DNA from: Candidatus Nomurabacteria bacterium
Lineage (GTDB): Bacteria; Patescibacteriota; Minisyncoccia; Phycocordibacterales; UBA9973
Reading direction: 5' to 3'
Assembly (NCBI GenBank): GCA_026396065.1
Contig: JAPLXO010000003.1
Coordinates: 1,304 to 65,303 of the forward strand
Length of the DNA stretch: 64,000 nt
A model generated the notes under the pieces. It worked only from the letters and a program-made list of their open reading frames with translations. It searched no databases and was not told the origin of the DNA. The translations under genes were made by a program, and so were the position numbers. Position 1 is the first letter of the stretch. Each line of letters begins with the position of its first letter. Of the stretch, positions 4,829 through 46,046 are shown in pieces.

Positions 4829-4829
4829 G

Positions 4830-6690: not shown

Positions 6691-7137
6691 ATGAGACTTC
6701 TTGGTATAGATTATGGAATGAAAAGAATAGGAGTGGCTATTTCTGACGAAGGAGGCACTTTGGCATTTCCAAAAGAAATTATTGCCAATGGACAAAAACT
6801 TAACCCACTAAAAAGAATAGGAGAAATAATAAAACAAGAGAAAATTTCTGAAATTGTCGTCGGTGAATCGGTGGATTTTTCTGGTAGTTTAAATATGCTA
6901 ATGGCGCATATTGAGCTTTTTATTGGAGAGCTTGAAAACGAATTTCATTTGCCAGTACACAAACAAAAAGAATTCTTGACATCCGTCGAAGCAAGGCGTT
7001 CCAAAGACGGCAAAAAAGATGCCAGCCCTTCTCAAGCTCGAAGTCGACTCAAAAGTACAAAAGCTGGCAGGGTAGATGCTTCAGCTGCAGCACTTATTTT
7101 ACAAAGATATTTAGACAAGATTAATCAAGCAAAATAA
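6691..7137 (+). CDS. ruvX: Holliday junction resolvase-like protein RuvX/YqgF
   Basis: MRLLGIDYGMKRIGVAISDE... RNase H-like N-terminus. The C-terminus has a DASAAALILQRYL signature. The ORF track opens at 6604; ATG at 6691 is the preferred start. Confidence 0.8.
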   Translation: MRLLGIDYGMKRIGVAISDEGGTLAFPKEIIANGQKLNPLKRIGEIIKQEKISEIVVGESVDFSGSLNMLMAHIELFIGELENEFHLPVHKQKEFLTSVEARRSKDGKKDASPSQARSRLKSTKAGRVDASAAALILQRYLDKINQAK

Positions 7138-7163
7138 TTTTTTAAAACAGGTATAATTTATTT

Positions 7164-8822
7164 ATGGAATCTGAAACAAGAAATTGTAAATATTGTAAAA
7201 CTCAATTTGAAATAACAGAGAGGGAAATGAGTATGTACGAGAAAATCAATCTAATGATTCCTGATATCTGCGTACCATGTCGCTGGAAACAACACATGGC
7301 TTTTTGGCCATTCGGAAAATTCCGAACTGGTGTGAGTGATTTGTCTGGAGAAAGATTGATTACTGTTTTGCCGGCCAATGCACGCTACCCAATTTATACT
7401 TCCAAAGAATGGTGGAGTGACGCTTGGGATGCGATGACCCACGGACAAGATTATGATTCAAGCCGTTCATTTTTTGATCAATTAAAAGAATTACAAGAAA
7501 AAGTTCCTCGTCCACATCAACAAGGTGCACAAAGTTTAAATTGCGATTGGTGTGATGATGCTTGGGAATCTAAAAATTGTTACTTGAGTCGTTCTACATT
7601 AAGAGCTGAAAATCTTTTCTATGGATATCGTTCTATAGATTGTAAAGACTCGATAGATGTTTCTCATGTTTTTACACTTGACCAGTGTTACGACTGCACT
7701 TATTGCTTCACTTCATATAATTTATTTTTTTCAAAAAATTGTCGAGACTGTCTTGATAGCGCTTTTTTATTTGATTGTCGAAATTCAAACCACTGTTTTA
7801 TGTGTTGGAATCTTCGAGGAAAATCATACTGCATAGAAAATGTTCAATATACAAAAGAAGCTTATGAAGAAAAAATGAAAGAAATAAATTTTGGTTCTAA
7901 TATTGAACTTCAAAAATACAAAGATAGATATGAAGAAATTTTAAGAAAAAATGTAGTGCATCGAGAAAATTTTAATATAAAAACTTATGATTCTCTGGGA
8001 ACATATATGACGAATTGCAAAAATTGTGTAAATGTATTTTCTTGGGAAGATTCTGAAAATTGTACCAATTGTTTGCGTGGTTTGAAGTCAAAAGATTCTA
8101 TTGATATGGTTGGTTGTTGGAATATGGAATTATCCGGTAATGATAGTTGTTGTACAAACGCTTATGATTTAAAATATTCTATTTGGTGTGATGGTGCTAG
8201 ATATTCTGAATATTGTGATCAATGCGTTGAAATAGAAAATTGTTTTGGTTGTGTCAGTCTTCGTAAGAAAAAATATTGTATTTTAAATAAACAATATAGT
8301 AAAGAAGAATACGAAGTTTTGAAAGAAAAAATTATTTCAGATATGAAAGAGCGAGGTGAATACGGACAATTTCCTCCGTATTCAATGGGTCTTTGCCCAT
8401 ATAATTTTTCTACTTCAGCAATTTATTCTCCAGACGTTACAAAAGAATACGTAGAGGCGTTGAGAGGATATTGGGAAGATAATAAAGATGAAAAAATAGA
8501 AGGATTAACTACAGAACAAATTCCAGATTCAATTACAGAAGTGGATGAATCATTTTCAAAGCAAGCACTCATTTGTCCTATTACTGGTTGGAGGTACAAC
8601 ATTGCCGAAGGGGAGCTCGCATTCTTGAAAAGAAAAAATATTTCAATCCCTCGTGTACATTTTGATGTGCGAACTAAAAATCGTTTATCTATTCTCAGTC
8701 AAACAAAAAGTGAAGCATATACTTGCACTTATTGTTCAAAAAATATTATTGCTTATTATCCAAAAGATTGGGGTTATGAATATATTGCTTGTGAGCACTG
8801 TTATTTAAAAGAGATTGCTTAG
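7164..8822 (+). CDS. cysteine-rich repeat protein of unknown function (552 aa)
   Basis: Dozens of Cys arranged in recurring NCxxC / CxxC...YC..N.QYSKEEYE units. No family recognised. Confidence 0.6.
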   Translation: MESETRNCKYCKTQFEITEREMSMYEKINLMIPDICVPCRWKQHMAFWPFGKFRTGVSDLSGERLITVLPANARYPIYTSKEWWSDAWDAMTHGQDYDSSRSFFDQLKELQEKVPRPHQQGAQSLNCDWCDDAWESKNCYLSRSTLRAENLFYGYRSIDCKDSIDVSHVFTLDQCYDCTYCFTSYNLFFSKNCRDCLDSAFLFDCRNSNHCFMCWNLRGKSYCIENVQYTKEAYEEKMKEINFGSNIELQKYKDRYEEILRKNVVHRENFNIKTYDSLGTYMTNCKNCVNVFSWEDSENCTNCLRGLKSKDSIDMVGCWNMELSGNDSCCTNAYDLKYSIWCDGARYSEYCDQCVEIENCFGCVSLRKKKYCILNKQYSKEEYEVLKEKIISDMKERGEYGQFPPYSMGLCPYNFSTSAIYSPDVTKEYVEALRGYWEDNKDEKIEGLTTEQIPDSITEVDESFSKQALICPITGWRYNIAEGELAFLKRKNISIPRVHFDVRTKNRLSILSQTKSEAYTCTYCSKNIIAYYPKDWGYEYIACEHCYLKEIA

Positions 8823-34701: not shown

Positions 34702-35391
34702 ATGAAAAAAGGAAAATTCATAGTAATAGATGGTACAGATGGTAGTGGAAAAGCTACACAGGTAGACTTACTCAAAAAACAATTAACGAAAGATGGTTTT
34801 AAGGTTAAAACCGTTGATTTTCCTGTATATTATAAAAACTTTTTTGGTGCTTTTGTGGGGCATTGTCTTAAAGAGCAATATTACAATTTTATAAAAATTC
34901 ATCCTAAAATCGCATCTGTTTTATATGCAGCTGATAGATGGGAATCATCGGAAGAAATGCGTAAATGGTTGAAATCTGGCTATATAGTAATAGCAAATAG
35001 ATATGTATCTGCAAATCAGATCCATCAAGGTGGAAAAATAACAAATGCAAAAAAGAGGAAAGAGTTTTTAATTTGGCTTGATGAAATGGAATATAAAGTT
35101 TTTGGAATTCCGCGACCAGACCTAGTCATTTATTTGGAAGTCCCAATTAAAATTACTCAAAAATTAATGTCTGGTCGTGGTGGAGATAATACACGTCAAT
35201 ATTTAAATAGAAAAACAGATGTTCATGAGAATGATCCAATTTTTCTAGAAAACTCTAGAAAGAGCGCGTTGAAATTAGTTAAAGAGTTAAATAATTTTGT
35301 AAAAATATCTTGCTCAAAAGAAAATAAAATGTTTACACGTGAAGATATACATAAAAATGTTTACATAGAAGTTAAAAAGATTTTAAAATAA
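34702..35391 (+). CDS. thymidylate kinase-like (deoxy)nucleoside/nucleotide kinase
   Basis: P-loop FIVIDGTDGSGKATQ resembles Tmk FITFEGIDGAGKTTQ. Confidence 0.6.
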   Translation: MKKGKFIVIDGTDGSGKATQVDLLKKQLTKDGFKVKTVDFPVYYKNFFGAFVGHCLKEQYYNFIKIHPKIASVLYAADRWESSEEMRKWLKSGYIVIANRYVSANQIHQGGKITNAKKRKEFLIWLDEMEYKVFGIPRPDLVIYLEVPIKITQKLMSGRGGDNTRQYLNRKTDVHENDPIFLENSRKSALKLVKELNNFVKISCSKENKMFTREDIHKNVYIEVKKILK

Positions 35392-35392
35392 T

Positions 35393-35803
35393 ATGAAAAT
35401 ATATTTTGCTGGATCAATACGCGGGGGAAGAGATGATAAAGATATTTATGCTGAAATTATTTCTTTACTTAAAAAATACGGGGAAGTATTAAGTGAACAT
35501 ATTGGTGACAAAGAACTTTCTAGTTTTGGTCAGACACATATGACTGACTCTGAAATTTATCAGAAAGATATTGGTTGGATTAATGAATCAGATATCATTA
35601 TTGCTGAAGTTACAAACCCATCTACTGGTGTTGGTTACGAATTAGGATATGCTGAATTCTTTTGCAAGAAAATAATCGCATTATATAGACCGATTGAAGG
35701 TAAAAGAATTTCTGCTATGATAAAAGGTAATAGCTATATGACTTGTGTCGAATATAAAGAAGTTCCAGAATTAGTAGAAGTTTTTGATAAATATTTAAAA
35801 TAA
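35393..35803 (+). CDS. 2'-deoxynucleoside 5'-phosphate N-hydrolase (DNPH1/Rcl)-like nucleoside 2-deoxyribosyltransferase family protein
   Basis: MKIYFAGSIRGGRDDKDIYAEIISLLKKYGEVLSEHI closely parallels Rcl YFCGSIRGGREDRTLYERIVSRLRRFGTVLTEHV. Also TNPSTGVGYELGYA. Confidence 0.75.
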   Translation: MKIYFAGSIRGGRDDKDIYAEIISLLKKYGEVLSEHIGDKELSSFGQTHMTDSEIYQKDIGWINESDIIIAEVTNPSTGVGYELGYAEFFCKKIIALYRPIEGKRISAMIKGNSYMTCVEYKEVPELVEVFDKYLK

Positions 35804-36225
35804 TGCAACTAAAAATTAAAAAATTAAAAGAAGATGCAAAATTGCCGAGTTATGCTCATCCGGGGGATGTGGGGCTGGATTTGTATTCAATGGAAAATAT
35901 TGTAATAAAACCAGGCGAAGATATTTTTATCTGGCATGGTTTTGCTCTCGAATTCCCAGAGGGATATTGCGCCTTAGTTATGGATAAAGGAAGTATTTCA
36001 AAAGCCGGTCTTAAAACTATGGGTGGGGTTTTTGATGCAGGGTATAGAGGTGAATATAATACACACCTAGTCAATTTATCAGATAAAGAGTATATTATTG
36101 ATGTTGGTGATAAGGTTGCACAGCTTGTTATTGTTCCCGCTATTATCGCTGATATTGAAGAGGTGAGTGAGCTTTCAGACTCTTCACGTGGGGAAGGAAG
36201 ATTTGGTTCGACTGGAAAGAAATAA
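35803..36225 (+). CDS. dut: dUTP diphosphatase
   Basis: PGDVGLDLYS, GYRGEY and a C-terminal SSRGEGRFGSTG motif. Confidence 0.9.
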   Translation: MQLKIKKLKEDAKLPSYAHPGDVGLDLYSMENIVIKPGEDIFIWHGFALEFPEGYCALVMDKGSISKAGLKTMGGVFDAGYRGEYNTHLVNLSDKEYIIDVGDKVAQLVIVPAIIADIEEVSELSDSSRGEGRFGSTGKK

Positions 36226-36276: not shown

Positions 36277-37980
36277 ATGAAACAAATAATAGAAAACTTA
36301 ATACGACAAGCTTTAAAAAATCTGGACATAGGCGAGGTGAATTTTATTGTGGAACATCCAGAAGATTTTAAGAATGGAGATTATTCCACAAATGTGGCTA
36401 TGGTGTGCGCAAAGCAATTAAAAATGAATCCGAAAGCACTAGCAGAAAAAATTTCTGCAGAAATTTTTTCTGCTAAAGAGTCACAAATTTCAAAAATAGA
36501 AGTCGCAGGGGCAGGGTTTATAAATTTCTATTTATCACGAGAGTTTTTCAGTAATTCAGTAAAAGAAGTTTTAGAAAAAGGAGCAGATTATGGAAAAAAT
36601 AATTCTCTAACTGGTAAAAAGGTAATGGTGGAATATACTCAGCCAAACCCTTTCAAGCCATTTCATATTGGGCATCTTATGAGTAATTCTATCGGTGAAT
36701 CAATTTCTAGAATTGTTGAATTTTCTGGTGCGAAAACAGTGCGAGCGAATTATCAAGGTGACGTTGGTCCACACGTAGCAAAAGCTATATATGGTATGTA
36801 TAAAGCCGGCCCTCCAGCGAATGAATCTACAGCATCTGTGTCTGTCTTGGCTCAATATATTGGACAATGTTATTCACAGGGTAGTAATTTTTATGATACT
36901 GATGAACAGGCCAAAAAAGAAATAGATGAAATAAATAAAAAAGTTTACAACAGAAGTGATGAAAAAATAAATCAAATATATGATTGGGGTAGGAAAGTAA
37001 CATTGGAAGCTTTTGAAGAACTTTACAAAATTCTCGGTACAAAATTCGATTACTACTTTTTTGAAAGTGAAATGGCTCCAATAGGAGAAAAGATTGTCCG
37101 TGCAAATATTCCGAAAGTTTTTGAAGAGTCTGACGGCGCAATAGTTTTTCATGCAGAAAAATATAATCCAAAGCTCCACACTAGAGTATTCCTCACTTCT
37201 CATGGTATTCCACTTTATGAGACAAAAGAAATAGGCCTCACTACTACAAAATTTGAAAAGGAAAATCCTGATATCTCTATCGTCACCACAGCCATAGAAC
37301 AAGGCGAATATATGAAAGTAGTCCAGCAAGCTATTGCATTAATGCATCCAGAACTAGAATCTAGAATGAAACATATTACTCATGGTATGATGCGCCTAGC
37401 ATCAGGTAAGATGTCTTCTCGAAAAGGAAATGTCGTCACAGGGGAGTCACTGCTTCGTGATTCTATGGATGTAGTTTTAGAGAAAATAAAAGATCGAGAA
37501 TTTACAGATGAAGAAAAGAAAAAAGTTTCCGAAAGTGTCGGTGTGGCTGCACTGAAATATTCAATCCTTCGTTCATCTCTCGGCTCTGATATTATTTATG
37601 ATTTTGAAAAGTCTATTTCATTCGAAGGGGATTCTGGTCCTTATTTGCAATACTCTGCAATGCGTGCAAAATCTATTCTTGCGAAAGCATTGAATCATAC
37701 TTCGTTTAACGAAATTCCAGAACAAGTTTCAGATTTAGAAAAAATACTTTATCGTTTTCCTGAAGTCGTAGCTCATTCATATGCAGAGCTCGAGCCACAT
37801 CATATAGCTACATATCTCACATCTTTGGCTTCTAGTTTTAATTCTTTTTATACGAATACTCAGATATTAAATACAGAAGATAAATATTCTCATTATTATG
37901 TCGCCCTCACGAAAGCCTTTCTCTCCACAATGCAAAACGGCCTTTGGCTTTTAGGAATTACTTTGCCAGAGAGAATGTGA
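36277..37980 (+). CDS. argS: arginyl-tRNA synthetase
   Basis: Arg-tRNA synthetase N-domain (HPEDFKNGDYSTNVAM), HIGH-class motif PFHIGHLMS, KMSSRKG, and a DALR-like C-terminus. Confidence 0.9.
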   Translation: MKQIIENLIRQALKNLDIGEVNFIVEHPEDFKNGDYSTNVAMVCAKQLKMNPKALAEKISAEIFSAKESQISKIEVAGAGFINFYLSREFFSNSVKEVLEKGADYGKNNSLTGKKVMVEYTQPNPFKPFHIGHLMSNSIGESISRIVEFSGAKTVRANYQGDVGPHVAKAIYGMYKAGPPANESTASVSVLAQYIGQCYSQGSNFYDTDEQAKKEIDEINKKVYNRSDEKINQIYDWGRKVTLEAFEELYKILGTKFDYYFFESEMAPIGEKIVRANIPKVFEESDGAIVFHAEKYNPKLHTRVFLTSHGIPLYETKEIGLTTTKFEKENPDISIVTTAIEQGEYMKVVQQAIALMHPELESRMKHITHGMMRLASGKMSSRKGNVVTGESLLRDSMDVVLEKIKDREFTDEEKKKVSESVGVAALKYSILRSSLGSDIIYDFEKSISFEGDSGPYLQYSAMRAKSILAKALNHTSFNEIPEQVSDLEKILYRFPEVVAHSYAELEPHHIATYLTSLASSFNSFYTNTQILNTEDKYSHYYVALTKAFLSTMQNGLWLLGITLPERM

Positions 37981-38060: not shown

Positions 38061-38627
38061 TTAATCAGGTTCTAGTCCTGATTCATTGATTTCTTTTGTT
38101 AGTTTCGTTACTTCATTATTAGTAACTTTTTTTCTTTTCTTTAAAATTTTTATCCAACCGAATCCTTCTTTTTTTGAATGAATCTCGGTGGTGCGTCCTC
38201 CACCTCTAAAATAAATTTTACCATGTCGTCCACAACCTTCGCATATTAAAAAATATGCTTGTTTTACGGTCTCGCTAGACTCGAGATATTCAGAGTCTGT
38301 TACCATTTCAGTAAGAAAATCATTCAAATCAGTAAAAAGTTCACTTTTCATTTGAATAATTTTTTTTCTTCTAATTTTAAATGGCATTTTACCTAATATT
38401 ATTTTTTCCGCTTCTTGAATTTCAAGTCCTAAAGCAGATGCATTCATTGTAGAAATTTGGTTGAAACTACGAAGCTTGCTAATTAGGTTTAAAACTTCAA
38501 TTTTTGTTTTGTATGTTTTACTTTTGCTTCCGTTATCGAAAACAAGTTGTGCTTTAGCTCCACCATTGAGCCAAAGTAGCTTGATATGTGTGTCTAAAAT
38601 CATTGTGTGATTATTTGTTAATTTCAA
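38061..38627 (-). CDS. hypothetical protein (188 aa)
   Basis: ORF with no recognisable motif. Confidence 0.5.
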   Translation of the reverse strand: MKLTNNHTMILDTHIKLLWLNGGAKAQLVFDNGSKSKTYKTKIEVLNLISKLRSFNQISTMNASALGLEIQEAEKIILGKMPFKIRRKKIIQMKSELFTDLNDFLTEMVTDSEYLESSETVKQAYFLICEGCGRHGKIYFRGGGRTTEIHSKKEGFGWIKILKKRKKVTNNEVTKLTKEINESGLEPD

Positions 38628-38873: not shown

Positions 38874-39458
38874 ATGAATTTAACACAATTTTTAAATGCA
38901 ATTAAGAGACAAAAACCTCTTATTTGCATCCAGGGTGATATTTTTCTTACCCCTGCGGACCACATTGTATTTGCTGTGAATTACCCATCGAAAGATGGAA
39001 AATGGAATAACACCGGTGGCTTTGCCGGAGATGTTGTAGCCAGAGGATGGACAAATCTTCCTGAAATTAAGTTTGAAAAAGGTCAAACAATTTCAAAAAA
39101 GATTTTTGGAAAAACTTATCATGCAATTGCCGTGCACTCAAACGAAGAATATGGTTGGGACGAAGCTCCAGATCTTATTCAACTTTGTTTAGACAAATTA
39201 CCGGTAAATAGTACTAGCGTAATGGCTATTGTACTAATCGGTGGAGGAAAAGCTGGTGAAAAGTATGTAGCCAGTATTAAAAATGTGGAAGGCATCAGCC
39301 GGACGTATAAAACAGTGGTACTTTATGTTAAAGAAGTGGAGCATTACAAATATTTACTTGCAGCTGGATACGTTTCTGCCGTTGTAGATGTTCCCAGAAC
39401 TTTTAAGTTAAGAGACGACTACTTTCTTACGGAAGAAAGGACGGCTACTTCTGCTTAA
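38874..39458 (+). CDS. macro-domain (ADP-ribose binding/processing) protein
   Basis: ICIQGDIFLTPADHIVFAVN....NNTGGFAGDV matches the macro-domain GDIT...DAIVNAAN...GGGGV pattern. Confidence 0.5.
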   Translation: MNLTQFLNAIKRQKPLICIQGDIFLTPADHIVFAVNYPSKDGKWNNTGGFAGDVVARGWTNLPEIKFEKGQTISKKIFGKTYHAIAVHSNEEYGWDEAPDLIQLCLDKLPVNSTSVMAIVLIGGGKAGEKYVASIKNVEGISRTYKTVVLYVKEVEHYKYLLAAGYVSAVVDVPRTFKLRDDYFLTEERTATSA

Positions 39459-39726: not shown

Positions 39727-42700
39727 ATGGAAGAAAAAAAAGATACAACTAAATCAGAAATAGCACTTCGCGAAGAAGCGGTTTTGGCTTTTTGGCGAGA
39801 AAATAAAACATTTGAAAAATCTTTAGAAAAAGAATCTCCAAAAGGAAATTATGTTTTTTATGATGGTCCACCATTTGCGACAGGGCAGATGCACTACGGG
39901 CATATTTTAGGTTCGACTGCGAAAGATGTCATCGGTCGCTATCAAACTATGCGCGGATACCATGTTCCACGAAAATGGGGCTGGGATTGTCATGGTTTGC
40001 CTATTGAAAACATTGTAGAAAAAGAACTCGGAATAGCAGGACATAAAGAAATTGAAAAATATGGAATAGAAAAGTTTATTGAGTATGCACGAAGTAAAGT
40101 TTTGCAATATGAAGATGATTGGGAATCTGGTGTAGAGCGTATCGGTCGCTGGGTGGATTTTCGTGGTGGCTACAAGACGATGGATAATAATTTTATCGAA
40201 TCAGTGTGGTGGGCGCTTTCAGAATTTTATAAAAAAGGTTTAGTTTATGAAGGTGTGCGCGTACTGGCGTATTGCGCCCGCTGTGAGACACCAATAGCGA
40301 ATTCCGAAATCGCGATGGATAACAGTTATAAAGATATTTCTGATCTTTCAGTATATGTGAAATTTGAATTAGTAGACGAACCAAATACATATTTACTCGC
40401 GTGGACTACTACACCTTGGACTTTGCCAGGGAATACTGCTATCGCGATAAATAAAGATATTGATTATGTAAAAGTAAGACTTACAGAGGATGCTCAAATC
40501 CAAAAAGCTGGAACAGGTACTTATAATGTTTATACTCCTGAATTTTTAATTTTAGCTAAAGTTCTTGTTGAGAAAGTTTTAAAGGATAAAATATTTGAAG
40601 TTGTTGAAGAATATAAAGGTGAAAAATTAGTCGGAAAATCATACAAACCAATTTTTAAATATTATGAAAATGTTGAAATGCCAAATAAAGAAAATATTTG
40701 GAAAGTTTGGCATGCAGATTTCGTAACGACAGAAAAGGGAACAGGTATCGCACACCAAGCCCCAGCTTTCGGAGAAGAAGACTTCGTCTTGGCAAAAGAA
40801 AATAACGTACCATTTATTATTCACGTGAATAATACTGGCAAATTCGTAGATCAAGTTTCTGATATGGCAGGGCTAGCAGTAAAACCAAAAGACACAGCTG
40901 AAGACAAAGACGCGCACATGCGCACAGACATAGAAGTCATCAGAAAACTCCAAGAAAACGGAGCATTTTTTGCGAAAGAAAAAATACTGCACTCATACCC
41001 GCACTGTATGCGTTGTGATACTCCTATTATTTATTATGCTTTGCCATCTTGGTTTATCAATATCACGAAAGTAAAATCAGATATTGCAAAAAGTGCCGAA
41101 GAAATGAATTGGATTCCAGCGCACCTAAAAGATGGAAGATTTAAAAATATTTTAGAATCTGCCCCTGATTGGAATATCTCTCGCAATCGTTATTGGGCTT
41201 CGCCTCTTCCTGTTTGGAAATGCACGAAGTGTAAAGAAATGAAATTTATTTCTTCACTTGAAGATTTGAAAAAGCATACAAAAAAATCTGGAAATAAATA
41301 TTTTGTAATGCGTCATGGTGAGACAGAGGCAAATAAAAAAGGAATAATCTGTTCTATGCCTTCTGGTAAGTGGCATTTGGATGAAGATGGAATAAGGCAA
41401 GTCGAAAATGCAGGTGAGAATATGAAAGATAAGAAAATCGACTTGATATTTGTATCTGATTTTACTCGTACACAAGAAACAGCTGAAATAATGAGGTTAA
41501 AACTCGGCTTGGAAAAAGAGAGTGTAATAGTAGAGAAAAGGCTTCGTGAAATAGGCGCGTATTCTTTTGATGGAAAAGTTTGGGATGAATATCACGCATT
41601 TCATACAAAGACAGTAGAGAATTTCAACAAGCGCGTGAATGATGATGAATCGTACGAAGATGTGAAAGTTCGTATGACAGCATTCCTATATGAAATAGAA
41701 GAAAAATATAAAGGTAAAAATATTTTATTTGTCACTCACGGTGGGCCAGCTTGGCTTTTGACGGCAGGATCTATGGGTAATGATGTAAAAGAAACCTTGG
41801 CAATGATTTTAGATGTTAAGGATTATCATTATTTCCAAAATGCGGAAATAAAAGAATTGGATTTTACTCCTATCTCACACAATGCAAAATTTGAACTTGA
41901 TTTTCATCGACCATATATCGACAATATAAATCTCATTTGTGAGTGTGGTGAAGAAATGAAAAGAATCCCAGAAGTGCTGGATTGCTGGTTTGAATCTGGT
42001 TCTATGCCTTTCGCTCAAGATCATTTTCCTTTTGACCCCGAAGGAAAGATTACTTCCTACGGGGCAGGAAATTCAGACTGGGAAAAGAACAACTTTCCTG
42101 CAGGATTCGTGGCTGAATATATCGCTCAGACTAGAACATGGTTCAACTACACTCTCACAGTTTCTTCTGTTTTATTTGGTCATGCACCTTTTAAAAATGT
42201 CGTGACGACTGGAACTGTGCGCGCAGAAGATGGAGAAAAAATGTCTAAATCGAAAAATAATTTCCCTAATCCAAAGACTTTATTTGATAAGTATGGTGTG
42301 GATGCACTTCGTATGTATTTGATGTCTGGTCCACTAATGAAAGGGGAAGATGCGAATTTCGTAGAAAAACTCGTACAAGAAATATCTAGTAAAATAGTCG
42401 GCCGACTTGAAAACGTTGTTGCCTTTTATGAATTGTATAAAGACACCTCACCCCAACCCTCTCCTTATAAAGGAGAGGGAGCTAAAAACGTGCTTGATGT
42501 ATGGATTCTTTCTCGACTTGCACAAGTGATGGAAGAAGTGACTCTTGGTATGGAAGCTTATGATATGGCTTCGGCTACAAAACCTTTTGATTTATTTATC
42601 GATGACCTTTCTACTTGGTATCTCCGTCGTTCCCGTGACAGAATGAAAGAAGAGGCAAGCAACCCCGAAGGAAAGAGTACTTCCTACGGGGCAAGAACGA

Positions 42701-43347
42701 CTTTGTATTTTGTACTCAAAAATTTGGCAAAAGTCATAGCTCCGTTTGCGCCATTCGTGTCAGAAAACATTTGGATGAAATTGCGACTTGAGAATGAAGT
42801 TGAAAGTGTACATTTAGTAAACTGGCCCGACCTCACCCTGCCCTCTCCTGGAGAGGAGAGGGTTCTAGAAGAGATGCAGAAAACGAGAAACATTGTTTCT
42901 GTGGGATTAAAAGAGAGGCAAAAATTAGGAATTCCTGTGCGTCAGGTTTTGGGTGGTGTGAAAGTTAGTATTGAAAAATTAGATAATGAATATTTAGATT
43001 TAATAAAAGAAGAGTTGAACGTCAAAGAAGTGACACTAGAAACTAGCAACTCGAACCTAGAAACTAGTGTCGTACTCGACACGGTCATTACTCCCGAACT
43101 AAAAGAAGAAGGGAACTACCGTGAACTCGTTCGCGCGATTCAAGACATGCGTAAAAAAGCAGGGCTCACTCCTTCAGATATAATTTCTCTTTCTATAGAA
43201 ACTGACGAGATAGGAAAATCTTTAATTCAAAAATTCGAAGCTGATTTCAAGAAAACTATTTTGGTGAAAGAAATAAAGTTTGAGAGTAATACTGGGGAAG
43301 AAGTAAAAGTGGATACTTTAATCTTTAAAGTTAGTATTGAAAAATAA
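39727..43347 (+). CDS. ileS: isoleucyl-tRNA synthetase carrying an embedded histidine-phosphatase domain and several in-frame palindromic mini-insertions
   Basis: HIGH (PFATGQMHYGHIL), editing domain, KMSKS (GEKMSKSKNN), zinc-knuckle halves CTKC ... CECG. 1206 aa, versus roughly 920-1050 aa for typical IleS. Confidence 0.95.
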   Translation: MEEKKDTTKSEIALREEAVLAFWRENKTFEKSLEKESPKGNYVFYDGPPFATGQMHYGHILGSTAKDVIGRYQTMRGYHVPRKWGWDCHGLPIENIVEKELGIAGHKEIEKYGIEKFIEYARSKVLQYEDDWESGVERIGRWVDFRGGYKTMDNNFIESVWWALSEFYKKGLVYEGVRVLAYCARCETPIANSEIAMDNSYKDISDLSVYVKFELVDEPNTYLLAWTTTPWTLPGNTAIAINKDIDYVKVRLTEDAQIQKAGTGTYNVYTPEFLILAKVLVEKVLKDKIFEVVEEYKGEKLVGKSYKPIFKYYENVEMPNKENIWKVWHADFVTTEKGTGIAHQAPAFGEEDFVLAKENNVPFIIHVNNTGKFVDQVSDMAGLAVKPKDTAEDKDAHMRTDIEVIRKLQENGAFFAKEKILHSYPHCMRCDTPIIYYALPSWFINITKVKSDIAKSAEEMNWIPAHLKDGRFKNILESAPDWNISRNRYWASPLPVWKCTKCKEMKFISSLEDLKKHTKKSGNKYFVMRHGETEANKKGIICSMPSGKWHLDEDGIRQVENAGENMKDKKIDLIFVSDFTRTQETAEIMRLKLGLEKESVIVEKRLREIGAYSFDGKVWDEYHAFHTKTVENFNKRVNDDESYEDVKVRMTAFLYEIEEKYKGKNILFVTHGGPAWLLTAGSMGNDVKETLAMILDVKDYHYFQNAEIKELDFTPISHNAKFELDFHRPYIDNINLICECGEEMKRIPEVLDCWFESGSMPFAQDHFPFDPEGKITSYGAGNSDWEKNNFPAGFVAEYIAQTRTWFNYTLTVSSVLFGHAPFKNVVTTGTVRAEDGEKMSKSKNNFPNPKTLFDKYGVDALRMYLMSGPLMKGEDANFVEKLVQEISSKIVGRLENVVAFYELYKDTSPQPSPYKGEGAKNVLDVWILSRLAQVMEEVTLGMEAYDMASATKPFDLFIDDLSTWYLRRSRDRMKEEASNPEGKSTSYGARTTLYFVLKNLAKVIAPFAPFVSENIWMKLRLENEVESVHLVNWPDLTLPSPGEERVLEEMQKTRNIVSVGLKERQKLGIPVRQVLGGVKVSIEKLDNEYLDLIKEELNVKEVTLETSNSNLETSVVLDTVITPELKEEGNYRELVRAIQDMRKKAGLTPSDIISLSIETDEIGKSLIQKFEADFKKTILVKEIKFESNTGEEVKVDTLIFKVSIEK
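41240..41900 (+). other. in-frame histidine phosphatase (PGAM-like) domain inserted between the two zinc-knuckle halves of IleS
   Basis: YFVMRHGETEANKKG (RHG catalytic His motif) ... ILFVTHGGPAWLL (second conserved His motif). ~220 aa between PVWKCTKCKE and ICECGEEM. Confidence 0.7.
42036..42064. repeat. 29-bp palindromic insert CCCCGAAGGAAAGATTACTTCCTACGGGG, in-frame in ileS
   Basis: Encodes PEGKITSYG. A second copy at 42663-42691 differs by one nt. Confidence 0.8.
42444..42479. repeat. GC-rich palindromic mini-element, in-frame in ileS
   Basis: CACCTCACCCCAACCCTCTCCTTataAAGGAGAGGG with a 10-bp perfect stem. Encodes TSPQPSPYKGEG. Confidence 0.85.
42663..42691. repeat. second copy of the 29-bp palindromic insert, in-frame in ileS
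   Basis: CCCCGAAGGAAAGAGTACTTCCTACGGGG. Encodes PEGKSTSYG. Confidence 0.8.
42831..42862. repeat. variant GC-rich palindromic mini-element, in-frame in ileS
   Basis: CCTCACCCTGCCCTCTCCTggagAGGAGAGGG. Encodes LTLPSPGEER. Confidence 0.7.
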
Positions 43348-43530: not shown

Positions 43531-44112
43531 ATGAAAAAATTTAAACTTGTATTGGTAATTGTTGCAATAGTTGCTTCAATTATCGCGAATGTTGTGTATG
43601 TACCTGAAGTTCGCATCCTTTGCTTTATTTTCGAATACTTCGCACTCGGTTTTTTACTTCTGCAAATTATCGCAGAGGAAAGTGGAATTGAAGTTATGAA
43701 ATTACCTGATTCTGAAACAGGCGAAACGATTTCAAAAGACTTCTTGAACTCGGGTTATTACTACGAGGGCATAGATGGCTTTTGGAAAAGTTTAGCAAAA
43801 CTTCTTCCCATTTTTCCTAAGGAAATTCTTCTTCAACAAATCAACGAAGGAGTAAAAACTGAAGAACAAATGATGGATGGCAGGAATTGGTTGTCGAGAA
43901 AGGAAGCTATGAGTTTCGGAGCACAAAATGTTAAAAGCGGTGAGTACAAAGACGGAAAGGTACGTATTTACTTCTTTAAAGACGAAGAAAACAAAGGTCA
44001 GCGCTCTGAGCTCTGCGTTTGTTTGGATGGTGACAGTCCGGACGTGGACGTGGGCAAGTTCAATCCAGAGAACCGGTGGCGCAATGGCCGCATCTCGTAT
44101 TCTCGCAAATAG
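43531..44112 (+). CDS. DGR target protein: small membrane-anchored protein with a C-terminal variable region
   Basis: N-terminal TM helices. The last ~37 codons (43996-44107) form the VR paired with the TR at 44458-44569. Confidence 0.7.
   Translation: MKKFKLVLVIVAIVASIIANVVYVPEVRILCFIFEYFALGFLLLQIIAEESGIEVMKLPDSETGETISKDFLNSGYYYEGIDGFWKSLAKLLPIFPKEILLQQINEGVKTEEQMMDGRNWLSRKEAMSFGAQNVKSGEYKDGKVRIYFFKDEENKGQRSELCVCLDGDSPDVDVGKFNPENRWRNGRISYSRK
43996..44107 (+). repeat. DGR variable repeat (VR)
   Basis: 112-bp alignment with the TR. About 20 mismatches, every one at a position where the TR has A (the VR has G or C). Confidence 0.85.
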
Positions 44113-44132
44113 ATATTTGCGAAACTTATCTT

Positions 44133-44175
44133 AAAGGGCTCTTTGATTCTTTTGAATCTGGGGCCCTTTAATTTT
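44133..44175 (+). terminator. GC hairpin plus T-run just downstream of the VR (terminator and/or homing-associated hairpin)
   Basis: AAAGGGC-23 nt-GCCCTTT followed by a T run. Confidence 0.45.
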
Positions 44176-44457
44176 TTTTTATTTTTTAAAATGTTAGAAT
44201 ATATACAGAACAGTGCGGTAATTTTCGGCAGTGTCCAATATTCTAATTAGAATACAAGCTTCTTGAAATACATTGTTTCGATTTTAATACGGTCAGAATT
44301 GTGTCGGCGAATTTTTATTTTCTTACACAAGAGCACGATATTATTTTCCATTAAAAAAATATTTATTGGTGATACTACTAGTGAGCTTCGATGCTCCAAA
44401 TAATATTCAAAAGTTTATGATTTAAACTTTGGTGGCACAGATGGTCGTATCACAGAA

Positions 44458-44569
44458 GGTCAGCGCTCTAAACTCTACGTTTATTTGAATGGTGACAATC
44501 CGAACGTGAACGTGAACAAGTTCAATCCAGAGAACAAGTGGAACAATGGCAACATCTCGTATTCTCGAA
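44458..44569 (+). repeat. DGR template repeat (TR), non-coding
   Basis: Rich in AAC/AAT codons when read in the VR frame (GQRSKLYVYLNGDNPNVNVNKFNPENKWNNGNISYSRN). No ORF covers it. Confidence 0.85.
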
Positions 44570-44640
44570 ACAAAAATTTTCTCCCCGTTTATCATTTTGG
44601 TAAATGAGGAGTTTTTAATTTACGTACATTTCTGCTATCG

Positions 44641-44985
44641 CTAGGATTTACGTAATTTTGTTTCGATTCCTTTTTTCCAACCTCCTAAAATTTTACCGAC
44701 TTCGTGAAGTTTACTTGAAAGTTCTAAATATTCTTTTTCTTTGATCAATTTGTTTTCAAAAGCAATTTGAAGTAGGTATTTTATAATGTCGTTCTTACTG
44801 ATAGCTTCGACTATCACAATGCTTTTGTTTTCCATCCCAGCATAGTATGCTTTGTAGATGAGTTCAAGTAAATCTAAAAAATGGTTTTCAATTCTGGCAC
44901 CAGTTGTATATCTGCCGATACGAGGCATATGAGGGACGATATTACTACACCAAATAGCGAAGCTCTCTTTTGTTCGCAAGATCAC
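44641..44985 (-). CDS. avd: DGR accessory variability determinant (Avd), four-helix-bundle protein
   Basis: 114 aa. C-terminal EVGKILGGW matches Bordetella phage Avd EVGRILGSW. Resembles the 23S-rRNA-IVS protein family. Confidence 0.75.
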   Translation of the reverse strand: MILRTKESFAIWCSNIVPHMPRIGRYTTGARIENHFLDLLELIYKAYYAGMENKSIVIVEAISKNDIIKYLLQIAFENKLIKEKEYLELSSKLHEVGKILGGWKKGIETKLRKS

Positions 44986-45010
44986 ACTGGCTTTCTCGAT
45001 GGAAAAAGTA

Positions 45011-45033
45011 GTGTGTGTGTGTGTGTGTGTGTG
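45011..45033. repeat. (GT)11.5 dinucleotide microsatellite at the start of the RT ORF
   Basis: GTGTGTGTGTGTGTGTGTGTGTG. Encodes VCVCVC at the RT N-terminus. Lies 26-48 nt upstream of the avd start on the other strand. Confidence 0.9.
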
Positions 45034-46046
45034 GATTCAGCCATGCCTTCAATAATATCATATTGGTAGAAAATTTGTTTGTATCGTGGCGAGAATTTTT
45101 GCGAGGTAAAAGCAAACGAAAAGATGTGATTTTGTTTGGAATGAATTTGATGGATAATATTTTTTCTCTCCACAACGACCTTAAAAATAAAAAATATAAA
45201 CACAGTAATTACGAAGCATTTAAAATAAACGACCCGAAACCGAGAGACATACACAAAGCCAGTGTGCGAGACAGACTTTTACACCATTCTATCTATCGTA
45301 CGCTGTATCCGTACTTTGATAAGAAATTCATTTACGATTCATATTCTTGCCGATTAGGAAAGGGAACACATAAAGCAATATATAGATTTGAAAGTTTTGT
45401 AAATAAAGTAAGCAAGAATAATACAAAAACCTGCTGGGTTTTGAAATGCGACATCAGAAAGTTTTTTGCAAATATTGACCATGAAATATTGAAAAACATT
45501 TTGGCGAAATACATACAAGACAAAGATACATTAAATTTGTTAAGGAATATAATAGATAGCTTTCAAAGTGACACAAACTCTGCCTATGCAGAAAGTGTGT
45601 CACTTTCTGCTATTGGTTTACCGTTAGGTAATTTAACTTCACAGCTTCTAGTAAATATTTATATGAATGAATTTGATCAGTACGTGAAGCATAAGCTCAA
45701 AGTGAAATATTATATTAGATATGCGGATGATTTTGTAGTATTGAGTGAAGATAAAAAGTATTTGGAAGAAATACTGGAAGAAGTCGCAAATTTTCTGAAA
45801 GAAAATTTGCGACTAAAGTTACATCCAAACAAAGTTTTTAGTAAAACAATATTTTCTGGTGTAGACTTTCTCGGCTGGGTGCATTTTCCAAGACATCGAG
45901 TGTTGCGAAATGCTACTAAAAAAAGAATGCTTAGAAATTTAAAGAAAAATAGTAGTGAAAATGTAAAAGCTTCATATTTAGGAATGTTGAGTCATGGGAA
46001 TGGTTTTAAATTAAAGAATCATATTTACGCCATGGCTGAGATATAA
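45015..46046 (+). CDS. DGR reverse transcriptase
   Basis: IGLPLGNLTSQ (DGR-specific IGxxxSQ motif 4), YADD (YIRYADDFVV). N-terminus ILVENLFVSWREFLRGKSKRKD aligns to Bordetella bRT. Apparent GTG start inside the GT tract. Confidence 0.9.
   Translation: MCVCVCGFSHAFNNIILVENLFVSWREFLRGKSKRKDVILFGMNLMDNIFSLHNDLKNKKYKHSNYEAFKINDPKPRDIHKASVRDRLLHHSIYRTLYPYFDKKFIYDSYSCRLGKGTHKAIYRFESFVNKVSKNNTKTCWVLKCDIRKFFANIDHEILKNILAKYIQDKDTLNLLRNIIDSFQSDTNSAYAESVSLSAIGLPLGNLTSQLLVNIYMNEFDQYVKHKLKVKYYIRYADDFVVLSEDKKYLEEILEEVANFLKENLRLKLHPNKVFSKTIFSGVDFLGWVHFPRHRVLRNATKKRMLRNLKKNSSENVKASYLGMLSHGNGFKLKNHIYAMAEI

What the first reader, a model, noticed from the sequence alone, without database searches (positions are those of the whole stretch)
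41240..41900. IleS carries a complete histidine-phosphatase (phosphoglycerate-mutase-like) domain inserted between the two halves of its zinc knuckle
The sequence between PVWKCTKCKE and ICECGEEM spans ~220 aa.
- It contains RHGETEANKKG, the RHG catalytic His motif.
- It contains ILFVTHGGPAWLL, the second conserved His motif.
- Its N/C spacing fits the histidine phosphatase superfamily.

Canonical IleS has only a short zinc-binding CP2 segment here. This explains much of the 1206-aa length.

A phosphatase domain embedded in an aminoacyl-tRNA synthetase is, to my knowledge, not a described architecture. It could be a moonlighting or regulatory module, for example acting on a phosphorylated nucleotide or protein, or a degenerate structural insert.
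Basis: partly seen in the sequence, partly recalled or inferred. Interest (0 to 1): 0.65.

Follow-up and report, generated by a model that had tools for sequence, protein, structure and literature searches.

The report
Phosphatase domain built into isoleucyl-tRNA synthetase
The isoleucyl-tRNA synthetase of this Candidatus Nomurabacteria genome carries a complete histidine-phosphatase domain, with its catalytic residues intact, in a surface zinc-knuckle loop; the feature is real and old, is shared by many ultra-small (Patescibacteria) bacteria, derives from a gene that elsewhere sits just upstream of ileS, and I found it described in no paper.

Summary
ORF 39727-43347 (1206 aa) is a complete type-2 IleRS. 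A 198-aa histidine-phosphatase (HP) domain (aa 519-716; Pfam His_Phos_1, E=6.6e-33) interrupts it with no loss of host residues. The site lies between the CxxC and CxC halves of the zinc knuckle, which is subdomain CP3, not CP2.

It is not an artefact or a one-off. All 120 best full-length homologue clusters (58-100% identity) share the architecture, as do at least 30 GTDB species genomes (Nomura-, Paceibacteria, Kaiser-, Moran-, Nealsonbacteria).

The catalytic residues R529/H530/R581/E608/H671 are all invariant across 120 clusters, although the insert diverges faster (46% identity) than the host (69%). This argues for an active enzyme rather than filler.

In related lineages the orthologous HP is a free-standing gene in a tight argS-HP-ileS operon, and ileS there has no insert. 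The same HP subfamily is also fused to ArgRS, ValRS (up to four copies) and TsaC, and sits at two other IleRS sites.

Best reading: a phosphomonoesterase that works with tRNA-charging enzymes has been captured in cis. Its substrate is unknown; I favour a tRNA-end or nucleotide phosphomonoester. No paper found describes this architecture.

The parts
39727..43347 (+). ileS: type-2 isoleucyl-tRNA synthetase with inserted phosphatase domain, 1206 aa (identical to GenBank MCX6757374.1)
   Evidence: ORF. TIGR00392 808 bits. Best solved matches are IleRS2 8c8v/8c8u, E~1e-208. 100% match to P0121.
39727..41280 (+). IleRS N-terminal part (aa 1-518): first Rossmann half, CP core, editing domain CP1, CP2, and the first half of CP3
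   Evidence: Aligns to 8c8v residues 11-478. Sequence shows HYGH, the editing motifs AWTTTPWTLPGN and GTGIAHQAPAFGEED, and CARC/CMRC.
39892..39903 (+). HIGH signature (HYGH, aa 56-59)
   Evidence: HYGH in 120/120 homologue clusters.
41221..41232 (+). First half of the CP3 zinc knuckle (C499-T-K-C502)
   Evidence: The four Cys (499/502/738/740) are present together in 80/120 clusters and lost together in 40/120.
41281..41874 (+). Inserted histidine-phosphatase (branch 1) domain, aa 519-716
   Evidence: Pfam PF00300 E=6.6e-33. Insertion boundaries from the PDB alignment. AF2 pLDDT 93.4. Foldseek hits PspA, GpgP, PhoE, 6s2q with TM 0.63-0.77.
41311..41319 (+). RHG motif: R529, nucleophile H530, G531
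   Evidence: R and H in 120/120 clusters, G in 99%. R and H present in every divergent sequence that covers the position.
41467..41469 (+). R581, second phosphate-binding arginine (SxxxRTxET motif)
   Evidence: 100% conserved.
41548..41550 (+). E608, predicted general acid/base
   Evidence: 100% in 120 clusters. E or D in nearly all divergent members.
41737..41739 (+). H671, second active-site histidine (THG motif)
   Evidence: 100% in 120 clusters. 111/114 divergent site-1 domains.
41938..41946 (+). Second half of the CP3 zinc knuckle (C738-E-C740)
41875..43347 (+). IleRS C-terminal part (aa 717-1206): rest of CP3, second Rossmann half, KMSKS, anticodon-binding domain, DUF5915 C-terminal domain
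   Evidence: Aligns to 8c8v residues 479-861 and 899-1021. Pfam Anticodon_1 and DUF5915.
42238..42252 (+). KMSKS signature (aa 838-842)
   Evidence: KMSKS in 105 and KISKS in 14 of 120 clusters.
36277..37980 (+). argS (arginyl-tRNA synthetase), the conserved upstream partner of the argS-(HP)-ileS cluster
   Evidence: Pfam tRNA-synt_1d, DALR_1 and Arg_tRNA_synt_N. argS lies upstream of ileS::HP, same strand, in more than 20 species loci, and flanks the free-standing HP in others.

Best explanation
SHOWN. The gene encodes a full type-2 IleRS with HIGH, KMSKS, the editing motifs and the anticodon domain all intact. A complete branch-1 histidine-phosphatase (HP) domain is spliced in frame into the tip of its CP3 zinc-knuckle hairpin. 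The trait is clade-wide and vertically maintained in Paceibacteria-type Patescibacteria. The domain is orthologous to a free-standing about 190-aa HP gene that sits between argS and ileS in related lineages. In other lineages the same HP subfamily is fused to the ArgRS C-terminus, inserted in ValRS, fused to TsaC, or inserted at two other IleRS loops.

INFERRED, step 1 (about 0.85). The domain is an active phosphomonoesterase using standard chemistry. H530 attacks the phosphate to form a phospho-histidine. R529, R581 and H671 hold the phosphoryl group. E608 protonates the leaving group and then activates water.

INFERRED, step 2 (about 0.6). It is an accessory enzyme of the tRNA-charging and tRNA-maintenance machinery that acted in trans and has been captured in cis. 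This parallels free-standing editing factors such as YbaK/ProX versus the ProRS INS domain. The IleRS body then supplies co-expression and, possibly, substrate recruitment.

INFERRED, step 3 (weak). Its substrate is a phosphomonoester encountered by these enzymes. My ranking within step 2:
- a 2'/3'-phosphorylated or pyrophosphorylated tRNA acceptor end that must be healed before charging, about 0.2-0.25
- a nucleotide monophosphate by-product, about 0.15
- a phosphorylated residue on the synthetase or a partner, about 0.1
- pyrophosphate, about 0.1
For: Architecture and boundaries.

Not an artefact: all 120 best clusters (58-100% identity, 1145-1330 aa, from NCBI, JGI, ENA and Logan) have PF00133+PF00300. 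About 30 GTDB species genomes span the whole junction.

Activity:
- R529, H530, S577, R581, E608 and H671 are 100% conserved, G531 99% and N536 98%, in 120 clusters while flanking positions vary.
- The same set holds in divergent IleRS inserts with only 30-57% host identity, and in the ValRS, ArgRS and TsaC copies.
- The insert evolves faster than the host (46% against 69% median identity), so this conservation is selective.
- The AF2 domain model has pLDDT 93.4. In the full-length model it is the best-defined region (pLDDT 88-96), with ordered junctions.

Origin:
- Free-standing orthologues P0073, P0056, P0085 and P0091 all lie argS-HP-ileS with 4-30 bp spacers, and ileS there is 957-981 aa without the insert.
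- In genomes with the insert, argS is still upstream, sometimes directly abutting ileS, and no free-standing HP is present (L016, L017, L025, L035).

Coupling to tRNA enzymes:
- ArgRS::HP fusion, retained with argS where ileS has left the locus.
- ValRS with one or four HP copies.
- TsaC::HP in four clusters, next to cca, tgt, the Q-salvage gene and truD.
- IleRS with HP at two further sites or in tandem.
- Of the 150 nearest relatives of the insert among 1.84 billion representatives, every multi-domain protein (over 300 aa) is an IleRS, a ValRS, an ArgRS or a TsaC; the rest are short HP-only proteins or fragments.

Open-site hint: the cap segment between E608 and E641 is the least conserved part and is deleted (6-9 aa instead of 32-35) in 7/120 clusters.
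Against: - No tool here identifies the substrate.
- The domain matches no NCBIfam equivalog: CobC 72.5 against 162.9, dPGM_arch 67.7 against 225, PspA 45 against 350, SixA 26 against 74.5. Structural neighbours are generic, 20-24% identity.
- The insert is mildly acidic (median pI 6.0), which does not favour extensive RNA binding.
- Insertion sites are scattered: CP3, the loop after DxWFxSG, the start of the anticodon domain, after SxQWF in ValRS, and C-termini. No fixed geometry relative to the acceptor end is therefore required. That fits mere tethering or co-expression as well as it fits substrate channelling.
- TsaC in these bacteria is also fused to Ogt, TruB, a 2H phosphoesterase, MPG, GNAT or NUDIX. 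Gene fusion is promiscuous here and is weaker evidence for functional coupling than it would be elsewhere.
- To my knowledge no histidine phosphatase is known to act on RNA ends.
- The neighbour-joining tree of HP domains is poorly resolved, so the number and direction of capture events is not established.
Confidence: 0.6

Rival explanations
1. Piggy-back housekeeping enzyme. The HP is an ordinary small-molecule phosphatase or mutase (sugar phosphate, phosphoserine, cofactor precursor) with no mechanistic link to aminoacylation. It happened to lie in a translation operon next to ileS and was absorbed into permissive surface loops. In tiny genomes this guarantees co-expression at no regulatory cost.
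For: - Nearest solved folds are small-molecule phosphatases: PspA, GpgP, PhoE, CobC, a riboflavin-pathway HFP.
- Fusions are promiscuous in these bacteria; TsaC is fused to Ogt, MPG, GNAT and NUDIX.
- Insertion sites are varied and need no defined geometry.
- The ArgRS fusion and the IleRS capture are both with operon neighbours.
- The domain keeps a small cap like PhoE or CobC in 113/120 clusters.
Against: - Every multi-domain partner found among the nearest relatives of the insert is a tRNA enzyme: IleRS at three sites, ValRS at two sites, ArgRS and TsaC.
- ValRS and TsaC are not operon neighbours in the loci seen.
- Up to four tandem copies in one ValRS is odd for a metabolic enzyme.
- The cap is dispensable in 7 clusters.
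- No equivalog threshold is met.
- Non-Patescibacteria relatives show no conserved context.
Confidence: 0.25
2. Product removal. The HP hydrolyses a common product of adenylate-forming enzymes, either AMP or pyrophosphate, at the enzyme that makes it. This pulls activation forward or recycles phosphate.
For: IleRS, ValRS, ArgRS and TsaC all convert ATP to AMP plus PPi (established enzymology). That chemistry is the one thing all four fusion partners share.
Against: - Small products diffuse faster than tethering can help.
- Insertion far from the active site (the anticodon-domain site) gives no channelling.
- To my knowledge branch-1 histidine phosphatases are not known pyrophosphatases.
- Destroying AMP would be costly in organisms that I understand rely on nucleotide salvage.
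- No tool result supports either substrate.
Confidence: 0.1
3. Self-protecting protein phosphatase. The HP removes inhibitory phosphorylation (Ser/Thr/His/Tyr) from the synthetase itself or a translation partner. An example would be phosphorylation by HipA-like kinase toxins, which in E. coli (from memory) target class I synthetase active-site loops.
For: - The superfamily includes protein phosphatases such as SixA, PGAM5 and Sts-1 (general knowledge).
- The variable and sometimes deleted cap suggests an open site.
- Cis placement on several class I synthetases.
Against: - SixA model 26 bits against a cut-off of 74.5.
- No PADLOC defence model matches the domain.
- A strictly conserved, ancient, clade-wide trait in a core operon looks like housekeeping rather than an arms race.
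- TsaC is not a known kinase target.
- No kinase was seen in any locus examined.
Confidence: 0.08
4. Pseudo-enzyme or structural spacer. The fold is kept only as a rigid block or a ligand sensor that modulates IleRS.
For: - The insert diverges faster than the host.
- CP3 is structurally variable among IleRSs (PMC7191050).
- The zinc ligands are dispensable in 40/120 clusters.
Against: The nucleophile His, both Arg, the Glu and the second His are invariant over 120 clusters and nearly so over far more divergent members. A spacer would not maintain them. A pure sensor would not need the nucleophile or the general acid.
Confidence: 0.04
5. Artefact or mobile element. The insert is an assembly chimera, a frameshift-joined neighbouring gene, or an intein-like selfish insertion.
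For: - The window comes from a metagenome-assembled genome.
- One related contig (L001) shows the same gene broken into several called pieces.
Against: - The ORF is uninterrupted.
- The same junctions recur in more than 120 independent clusters and about 30 species genomes from different projects.
- Insert GC is 0.347 against 0.366 and 0.388 for the host, so there is no compositional break.
- Pfam finds no intein, Hint or homing-endonuclease domain.
Confidence: 0.01

Closest known systems
Type-2 ('eukaryote-like') bacterial IleRS, e.g. Priestia megaterium IleRS2 (PDB 8c8u/8c8v) and Thermus thermophilus IleRS (1ile)
   Same: - Collinear over the whole enzyme (E about 1e-208 and 1e-181).
- HIGH and KMSKS signatures, CP1 editing domain, anticodon domain, DUF5915-type C-terminus.
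- A zinc-binding CP3 as in T. thermophilus (PMC7191050).
   Different: 198 extra residues forming an autonomous enzyme fold lie exactly between 8c8v residues 478 and 479. The CP3 zinc ligands are optional within the clade.
Small branch-1 histidine phosphatases: PhoE/YhfR (1h2e, 1ebb), phosphoserine phosphatase PspA (4ij5), glucosyl-3-phosphoglycerate phosphatase Rv2419c (4pz9, 4qih), CobC (6nru), 'mycobacterial hydrolase 1' (6s2q)
   Same: - Same fold (Foldseek probability 1.0, TM 0.63-0.77).
- Same size, about 200 aa.
- Same catalytic set: RHG, Arg, Glu and His.
   Different: - Only 20-24% identity.
- No NCBIfam equivalog cut-off is reached.
- These are free-standing enzymes, not a domain inside another enzyme.
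Synthetase accessory domains that exist both free-standing and inserted or fused: ProRS INS versus YbaK/ProX, AlaRS versus AlaX (general knowledge); NCBIfam NF040702 'isoleucine--tRNA ligase, N-acetyltransferase domain-containing'
   Same: The evolutionary logic matches. A small trans-acting enzyme encoded near or with a synthetase appears in other lineages as an internal or terminal domain of that synthetase.
   Different: Those domains are aminoacyl-tRNA deacylases or acetyltransferases, whereas this one is a phosphatase fold. This protein scores 320 bits against a cut-off of 1999 for NF040702, so it is not that family.
Bifunctional RNase H / acid phosphatase (NF005567, Rv2228c-type)
   Same: A CobC/PhoE-like histidine-phosphatase domain is joined to a nucleic-acid enzyme. 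The HP region hits this model at 60 bits.
   Different: That case is a terminal fusion to RNase H, not a loop insertion in a synthetase. The score is far below the 326-bit cut-off.

Membership tests
Isoleucyl-tRNA synthetase (TIGR00392 ileS) | Whole-protein score above the curated equivalog cut-off | tested here: met
   808.3 bits against a cut-off of 621.4, in two stretches split by the insert.
Isoleucyl-tRNA synthetase (class Ia) | HIGH and KMSKS signature motifs | tested here: met
   HYGH at aa 56-59 and KMSKS at aa 838-842. Conserved in 120/120 and 119/120 (KMSKS or KISKS) clusters.
Isoleucyl-tRNA synthetase (class Ia) | CP1 editing domain with a Thr-rich motif and a GTGxxHxAPxxGxxD motif | tested here: met
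   AWTTTPWTLPGN and GTGIAHQAPAFGEED are present in the translation. T227-T229, P230, W231, G338, H343 and D352 are invariant in alignment A3. The identity of these motifs as the editing-site motifs rests on my general knowledge.
Type-2 IleRS | Closest to IleRS2 or eukaryote-like enzymes, with a DUF5915-type C-terminus rather than the bacterial type-1 C-terminal zinc-binding domain | tested here: met
   Best PDB hits are 8c8v/8c8u (IleRS2), then yeast, Candida and Thermus enzymes. Type-1 S. aureus 1ffy reaches only 260 bits. Pfam DUF5915 at aa 1073-1206.
Mupirocin-resistance IleRS MupA/MupB | Score above the NCBIfam 'exception' cut-off | tested here: not met
   687 and 720 bits against a cut-off of 1900.
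Histidine phosphatase superfamily, branch 1 (PF00300) | Pfam gathering score | tested here: met
   114.4 bits against 21.7, covering profile positions 2-171 of 194.
Histidine phosphatase superfamily, branch 1 | RHG motif with a nucleophilic His, plus a second Arg, a Glu proton donor and a second His | tested here: met
   R529/H530/G531, R581, E608 and H671 are present. R529, H530, R581, E608 and H671 are conserved in 120/120 clusters and G531 in 99%. They align to the CobC and PhoE motifs.
Histidine phosphatase superfamily, branch 1 | Alpha/beta phosphoglycerate-mutase-like fold | tested here: met
   AF2 pLDDT 93.4, pTM 0.91. 315 PDB matches with E<=0.001, and the 50 listed are all histidine phosphatases or mutases.
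Histidine phosphatase superfamily, branch 1 | Actual phosphatase or mutase turnover through a phospho-histidine intermediate | not testable with these tools
   Needs enzyme assays with an H530A control.
Cofactor-dependent phosphoglycerate mutase (dPGM) | Equivalog score | tested here: not met
   NF038349 gives 67.7 against 225, NF002901 gives 42.7 against 261, NF002339 gives 23 against 316.
Alpha-ribazole phosphatase CobC | Equivalog score | tested here: not met
   TIGR03162 gives 72.5 against 162.9, NF011580 gives 45.4 against 250.
Phosphohistidine phosphatase SixA / phosphoserine phosphatase PspA | Equivalog score | tested here: not met
   TIGR00249 gives 26.4 against 74.5, NF045917 gives 45.4 against 350.
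Intein or homing element | Hint/intein splicing domain or homing endonuclease within the insert | tested here: not met
   Pfam finds only His_Phos_1 in aa 519-716. The whole insert is accounted for by one phosphatase fold.
Anti-phage defence proteins (PADLOC) | Match to any defence-system model | tested here: not met
   No PADLOC family at E<=0.01 for aa 519-716.

The most novel reading that the evidence does not exclude
The histidine phosphatase is a previously unrecognised tRNA or synthetase 'healing' activity of Patescibacteria. It would be a phosphomonoesterase that clears 2'/3'-phosphate or pyrophosphate from tRNA acceptor ends (or phosphate from the synthetase itself) so that charging can proceed. 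It is encoded either as a trans factor in the argS-HP-ileS operon or built directly into IleRS, ValRS, ArgRS and TsaC. That would be a new class of synthetase-embedded quality-control or repair domain, analogous in logic to editing domains but acting on phosphate.
Probability: 0.22. Interest if true: 0.85.

Novelty: new variant of a known kind. Interest (0 to 1): 0.62.

Why it matters
Aminoacyl-tRNA synthetases are among the most conserved enzymes known. In bacteria, their extra catalytic domains are almost always editing deacylases. Here a different chemistry, a phosphatase with its catalytic residues conserved, has been joined repeatedly to enzymes that charge or modify tRNA: IleRS at three sites, ValRS, ArgRS and TsaC. 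This occurs across a large radiation of ultra-small bacteria. Where the phosphatase is not fused, it is kept in a tight argS-HP-ileS operon.

That pattern points to an unrecognised phosphate-removing step linked to tRNA charging in these organisms, and it makes the step directly testable with one recombinant protein and an H530A control. It also gives a clean natural example of a neighbouring gene being captured into an internal loop of an essential enzyme. It identifies CP3 and two other loops as sites in class Ia synthetases that tolerate insertions, which is useful for engineering.

If instead the domain proves to be an ordinary metabolic phosphatase, the case is still a striking example of gene fusion in streamlined genomes, but of less general interest.

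Tried and rejected
1. Literature. Seven full-text searches combined IleRS or aaRS, histidine phosphatase or phosphoglycerate mutase, CPR or Patescibacteria, tRNA, and pyrophosphatase. None found a description of this architecture, and none informed substrate choice. Only the CP3 nomenclature was useful. A CCA-enzyme preprint was read and was irrelevant.

2. Phylogeny. I built a neighbour-joining tree of 190 HP domains to count capture events and find the ancestral state. Internal branches are very short and categories interleave. Some apparent 'standalone' leaves are probably fragments of IleRS. I draw from it no conclusion about the number or direction of capture events.

3. Non-Patescibacteria relatives. 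The contexts of the nearest ones (Clostridia L040, 'Tenericutes' L046) hold unrelated genes and give no clue.

4. The extra HD domain on P0211/P0232. I examined it as a hint to substrate class. It matches only the generic HDIG model, with no PDB match.

5. Net charge as a proxy for RNA binding. The inserted domains have median pI 6.0 and the free-standing ones 8.5. This is not decisive.

6. ORF 38874-39458 upstream of ileS. From memory its 'GDIF..AD.IV.A.N' motif recalled a macro domain. Pfam, NCBIfam, PDB and PADLOC give nothing, so I dropped it.

7. The afdb50 fold library was unavailable.

8. The full-length AF2 model returns no coordinates or PAE. The position of the HP active site relative to the tRNA path could therefore not be measured.


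Full report
**1. The observation**

The window holds one uninterrupted ORF, 39727..43347 on the + strand, of 1206 aa. Pfam finds tRNA-synt_1 split in two, with His_Phos_1 (PF00300) at aa 526-695 (E=6.6e-33). It also finds Anticodon_1 and the DUF5915 C-terminal domain. NCBIfam calls the protein ileS, 808 bits against a cut-off of 621.

Against solved structures the best match is IleRS2 of Priestia megaterium (8c8v). Query 13-518 aligns to chain 11-478 and query 717-1116 aligns to chain 479-861. Exactly 198 residues (aa 519-716, nt 41281-41874) are therefore added between two adjacent host residues, and nothing is removed.

The insert lies between C499-x-x-C502 and C738-x-C740. According to the Candida albicans IleRS paper, this hairpin is subdomain CP3, and it carries a zinc-binding motif in Thermus IleRS (PMC7191050). 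Insert GC (0.347) matches the host gene (0.366 and 0.388), so there is no compositional seam.

**2. Real and widespread**

The identical protein is GenBank MCX6757374.1, 'class I tRNA ligase family protein [Candidatus Nomurabacteria bacterium]'. All 120 best-scoring 90%-identity clusters (58-100% identity, 1145-1330 aa) carry both the synthetase and PF00300 domains. They come from NCBI, JGI, ENA and Logan assemblies. Members from the 2015 GW2011 and the RIFCSP genome sets are in UniRef as plain 'isoleucine--tRNA ligase'.

I searched the insert alone against 1.84 billion representative proteins. That gave 7483 hits at E<=0.001. Most of the 150 listed, and nearly all of those longer than 300 aa, are IleRSs with the domain at the same junction, although the host parts are only 30-57% identical to this one. 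A pattern scan of GTDB species genomes found about 30 loci spanning both junctions. They are labelled Nomurabacteria, Paceibacteria/Paceibacterota, Parcubacteria, Kaiserbacteria, Moranbacteria, Nealsonbacteria (a complete 647-kb genome) and Minisyncoccia. That scan needs shared exact 8-mers, so the count is a lower bound.

**3. An enzyme, not filler**

In a MAFFT alignment of the 120 clusters, R529, H530, S577, R581, E608 and H671 are 100% conserved, G531 99% and N536 98%. Neighbouring positions are often at 20-60%. The same residues hold in a more divergent set of 190 domains.

The insert as a whole evolves faster than the host, 46% against 69% median identity to the window protein. Conservation of the catalytic set is therefore selective.

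An AlphaFold2 model of aa 505-736 has mean pLDDT 93.4 and pTM 0.91. All 50 listed Foldseek matches in the PDB are branch-1 histidine phosphatases or mutases (6s2q, PspA 4ij5/4ij6, GpgP 4pz9/4qih, PhoE 1h2e, CobC 6nru, BPGM, TIGAR). TM is 0.63-0.77 at 20-24% identity. In a full-length model (pLDDT 77, pTM 0.66) the HP domain is the best-defined region (88-96), and the two junctions are ordered rather than long floppy linkers.

No NCBIfam equivalog (dPGM, CobC, PspA, SixA, GpmB) reaches its cut-off. Superfamily membership is therefore established, but substrate class is not.

The host enzyme looks fully functional. HYGH is present in 120/120 clusters, and KMSKS or KISKS in 119/120. The CP-core zinc site is CCCC in 120/120, and the editing motifs are invariant. 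The CP3 zinc ligands are all present in 80/120 clusters and all lost together in 40/120. The insert does not depend on the zinc.

**4. Where it came from**

The closest free-standing relatives (36-42% identity) were traced to their contigs. In every case (P0073, P0056, P0085, P0091) the roughly 190-aa HP gene lies between argS and ileS on one strand, with spacers of a few to about 30 bases. The ileS there is 957-981 aa. tblastn confirms that those IleRSs run straight from N part to C part without the insert. In one of them, CP3 measures 70 aa against 271 aa here.

Conversely, in more than 20 species loci with the inserted domain, argS is still upstream on the same strand. In four of them (L016, L017, L025, L035) it directly abuts ileS, and no free-standing HP is present.

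In this window argS is at 36277-37980, followed by two unannotatable ORFs and then ileS. In the loci examined the two states, free gene or internal domain, are mutually exclusive and occupy the same neighbourhood. A neighbour-joining tree of the domains was too poorly resolved to give direction or number of events.

**5. The same phosphatase on other tRNA enzymes**

Among the 150 nearest relatives of the insert, the multi-domain proteins that are not IleRS site-1 inserts are as follows.
- **ArgRS with a C-terminal HP (P0279).** Its locus keeps the usual synteny (smpB | argS::HP - recO - ... - proS), but ileS has left, so the HP stayed with argS.
- **ValRS.** One has HP after the DTWFSSG...LGWP loop (P0366). 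Another has four tandem HP copies after the SPQWF strand (P0289). All listed catalytic residues are present in the three near-complete copies (one has Ala at the position of N536); the fourth is cut off and could not be checked.
- **TsaC/Sua5-family threonylcarbamoyl-AMP synthase with a C-terminal HP.** It occurs in four clusters and lies next to the CCA-adding enzyme, tgt, a queuosine-salvage gene and truD.
- **IleRSs with the HP elsewhere.** Some carry it after DCWFESG...HYPFE ('site 2'), at the start of the anticodon domain ('site 3'), or in tandem (P0314, P0319, P0348, P0023, P0045, P0027, L049).

A caveat applies. TsaC in these bacteria is also found fused to Ogt, TruB, a 2H phosphoesterase, MPG, GNAT or NUDIX. 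Fusion is common here and is weaker evidence of coupling than it would be in other phyla.

**6. How it most likely works**

The shown facts are a functional-looking IleRS, an intact phosphatase active site, the operon origin and the repeated association with tRNA enzymes. Three inferences follow.
- **Catalysis (about 0.85).** The domain turns over phosphomonoesters through phospho-H530, with R529, R581 and H671 binding the phosphate and E608 acting as the acid/base.
- **Role (about 0.6).** It is an accessory of the tRNA-charging and maintenance machinery that acted in trans and was captured in cis, as happened with editing factors.
- **Substrate (weak).** The candidate substrates and my weights are set out in the best-explanation section. 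I favour a phosphorylated tRNA acceptor end.

Points for a large or generic substrate: the cap between E608 and E641 is the least conserved segment and is deleted in 7/120 clusters.

Points against a precise channelling mechanism: the insertion sites are scattered over the synthetase surface, and the domain is mildly acidic.

The main rival (about 0.25) is that this is an ordinary metabolic phosphatase carried along for co-expression. The pseudo-enzyme, artefact and intein readings are contradicted.

**7. Comparison with what is known**

The protein is a member of IleRS (type 2) and of the histidine phosphatase superfamily, branch 1. Both memberships were tested and met. It is not a member of dPGM, CobC, SixA, PspA, MupA/B or the GNAT-containing IleRS family; all were tested and not met.

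The closest conceptual precedents are synthetase editing domains that exist both free and inserted, and the RNase H/acid-phosphatase fusion. Neither involves a phosphatase inside a synthetase. I found no paper describing this architecture in the library available. That library omits most subscription journals.

**8. Verdict**

Novelty: a new variant of a known kind, that is, a known enzyme carrying a known fold in an undescribed, conserved and recurrent combination. Interest is 0.62. The architecture is surprising for a bacterial synthetase and points to a testable unknown function, but the function itself remains inferred.

Noticed in passing
window 43531-46046: A diversity-generating retroelement lies immediately downstream of ileS. 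The variable repeat is 43994-44108, at the 3' end of ORF 43531-44112. The template repeat is 44456-44570 (85% identical). All 17 mismatches fall at template adenines (13 A>G, 4 A>C). A four-helix-bundle (Avd-like, judged by eye) ORF is at 44641-44985 (-), and a reverse transcriptase (PF00078) is at 45015-46046.
   Followed up: yes
window 42458-42478 and 42842-42861 (inside ileS): Two GC-rich palindromic hairpins are embedded in frame in the coding sequence. CCTCTCCTTATAAAGGAGAGG encodes ..PSPYKGEG.. and CCTCTCCTGGAGAGGAGAGG encodes ..LPSPGEER... These are the only two matches in 64 kb, with 0 expected. Homologues carry different short Pro/Leu/Gly-rich inserts at exactly these two loops (after aa 910 and 1038). 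The first loop is also where other lineages hold a whole phosphatase domain.
   Followed up: partly
window 41221-41232 and 41938-41946; alignment of P0121-P0240: The four CP3 zinc-knuckle cysteines are all-or-none across the clade: CCCC in 80/120 clusters, all four replaced (mostly S-/D.) in 40/120. The CP-core zinc site is CCCC in 120/120.
   Followed up: partly
P0188, P0189, P0196, P0205, P0208, P0210, P0216 (homologues): Seven IleRS::HP clusters have lost about 25 residues of the phosphatase cap subdomain (6-9 aa instead of 32-35 between E608 and E641). They keep all catalytic residues.
   Followed up: partly
P0211, P0232 (homologues, 1319-1330 aa): These IleRS::HP proteins carry an additional C-terminal HDIG-type HD phosphohydrolase domain in the DUF5915 region. 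That makes two phosphohydrolase folds on one synthetase. The subfamily could not be resolved.
   Followed up: partly
P0330 (1066 aa): This IleRS carries an IS200-like Y1 transposase domain inside the editing-domain region, the HP domain at CP3, and a GNAT acetyltransferase after it. It may be a real mosaic or a mis-assembly.
   Followed up: no
L049 (Candidatus Gracilibacteria) 2374-7167: This IleRS has phosphatase domains at site 2 and site 3. About 1.2 kb between the end of the N part (3810) and the resumption of the C part (4996) is unaccounted for. The lineage is said to use an altered genetic code, which may affect ORF calls.
   Followed up: no
L001 (JGI contig Ga0558717_13791) 1-3563: An IleRS::HP gene is called as four or five separate ORFs, and its phosphatase piece is annotated 'broad specificity phosphatase PhoE'. 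It is either a decaying gene or frameshift errors. Some 'standalone' phosphatases in databases are therefore fragments of IleRS.
   Followed up: partly
P0392-P0500 (TsaC homologues from Patescibacteria): The threonylcarbamoyl-AMP synthase TsaC is very often fused to other small enzymes in these bacteria. Partners include Ogt-type methyltransferase domain PF01035 (the majority of hits), TruB, 2H cyclic phosphodiesterase (PF07823/PF13563), methylpurine glycosylase, GNAT and NUDIX.
   Followed up: no
window 38061-38627 (-), 38874-39458 (+), 43531-44112 (+): The three ORFs flanking ileS have no Pfam, NCBIfam or PADLOC match. The two between argS and ileS occupy the slot where relatives carry the free-standing phosphatase gene. 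By eye, the 38874-39458 product recalled a macro domain, but nothing supports that.
   Followed up: partly
window 34702-36225: A nucleotide-salvage trio lies directly upstream of argS: thymidylate kinase, nucleoside 2-deoxyribosyltransferase and dUTPase.
   Followed up: no
window 41980-42100 (aa 750-790): The loop after DCWFESGSMPFAQDHFPF (..DPEGKITSYGAGNSDWEKNN..) is the lowest-confidence stretch of the full-length model (pLDDT 36-46). It coincides with 'site 2', where other lineages carry a phosphatase domain.
   Followed up: no
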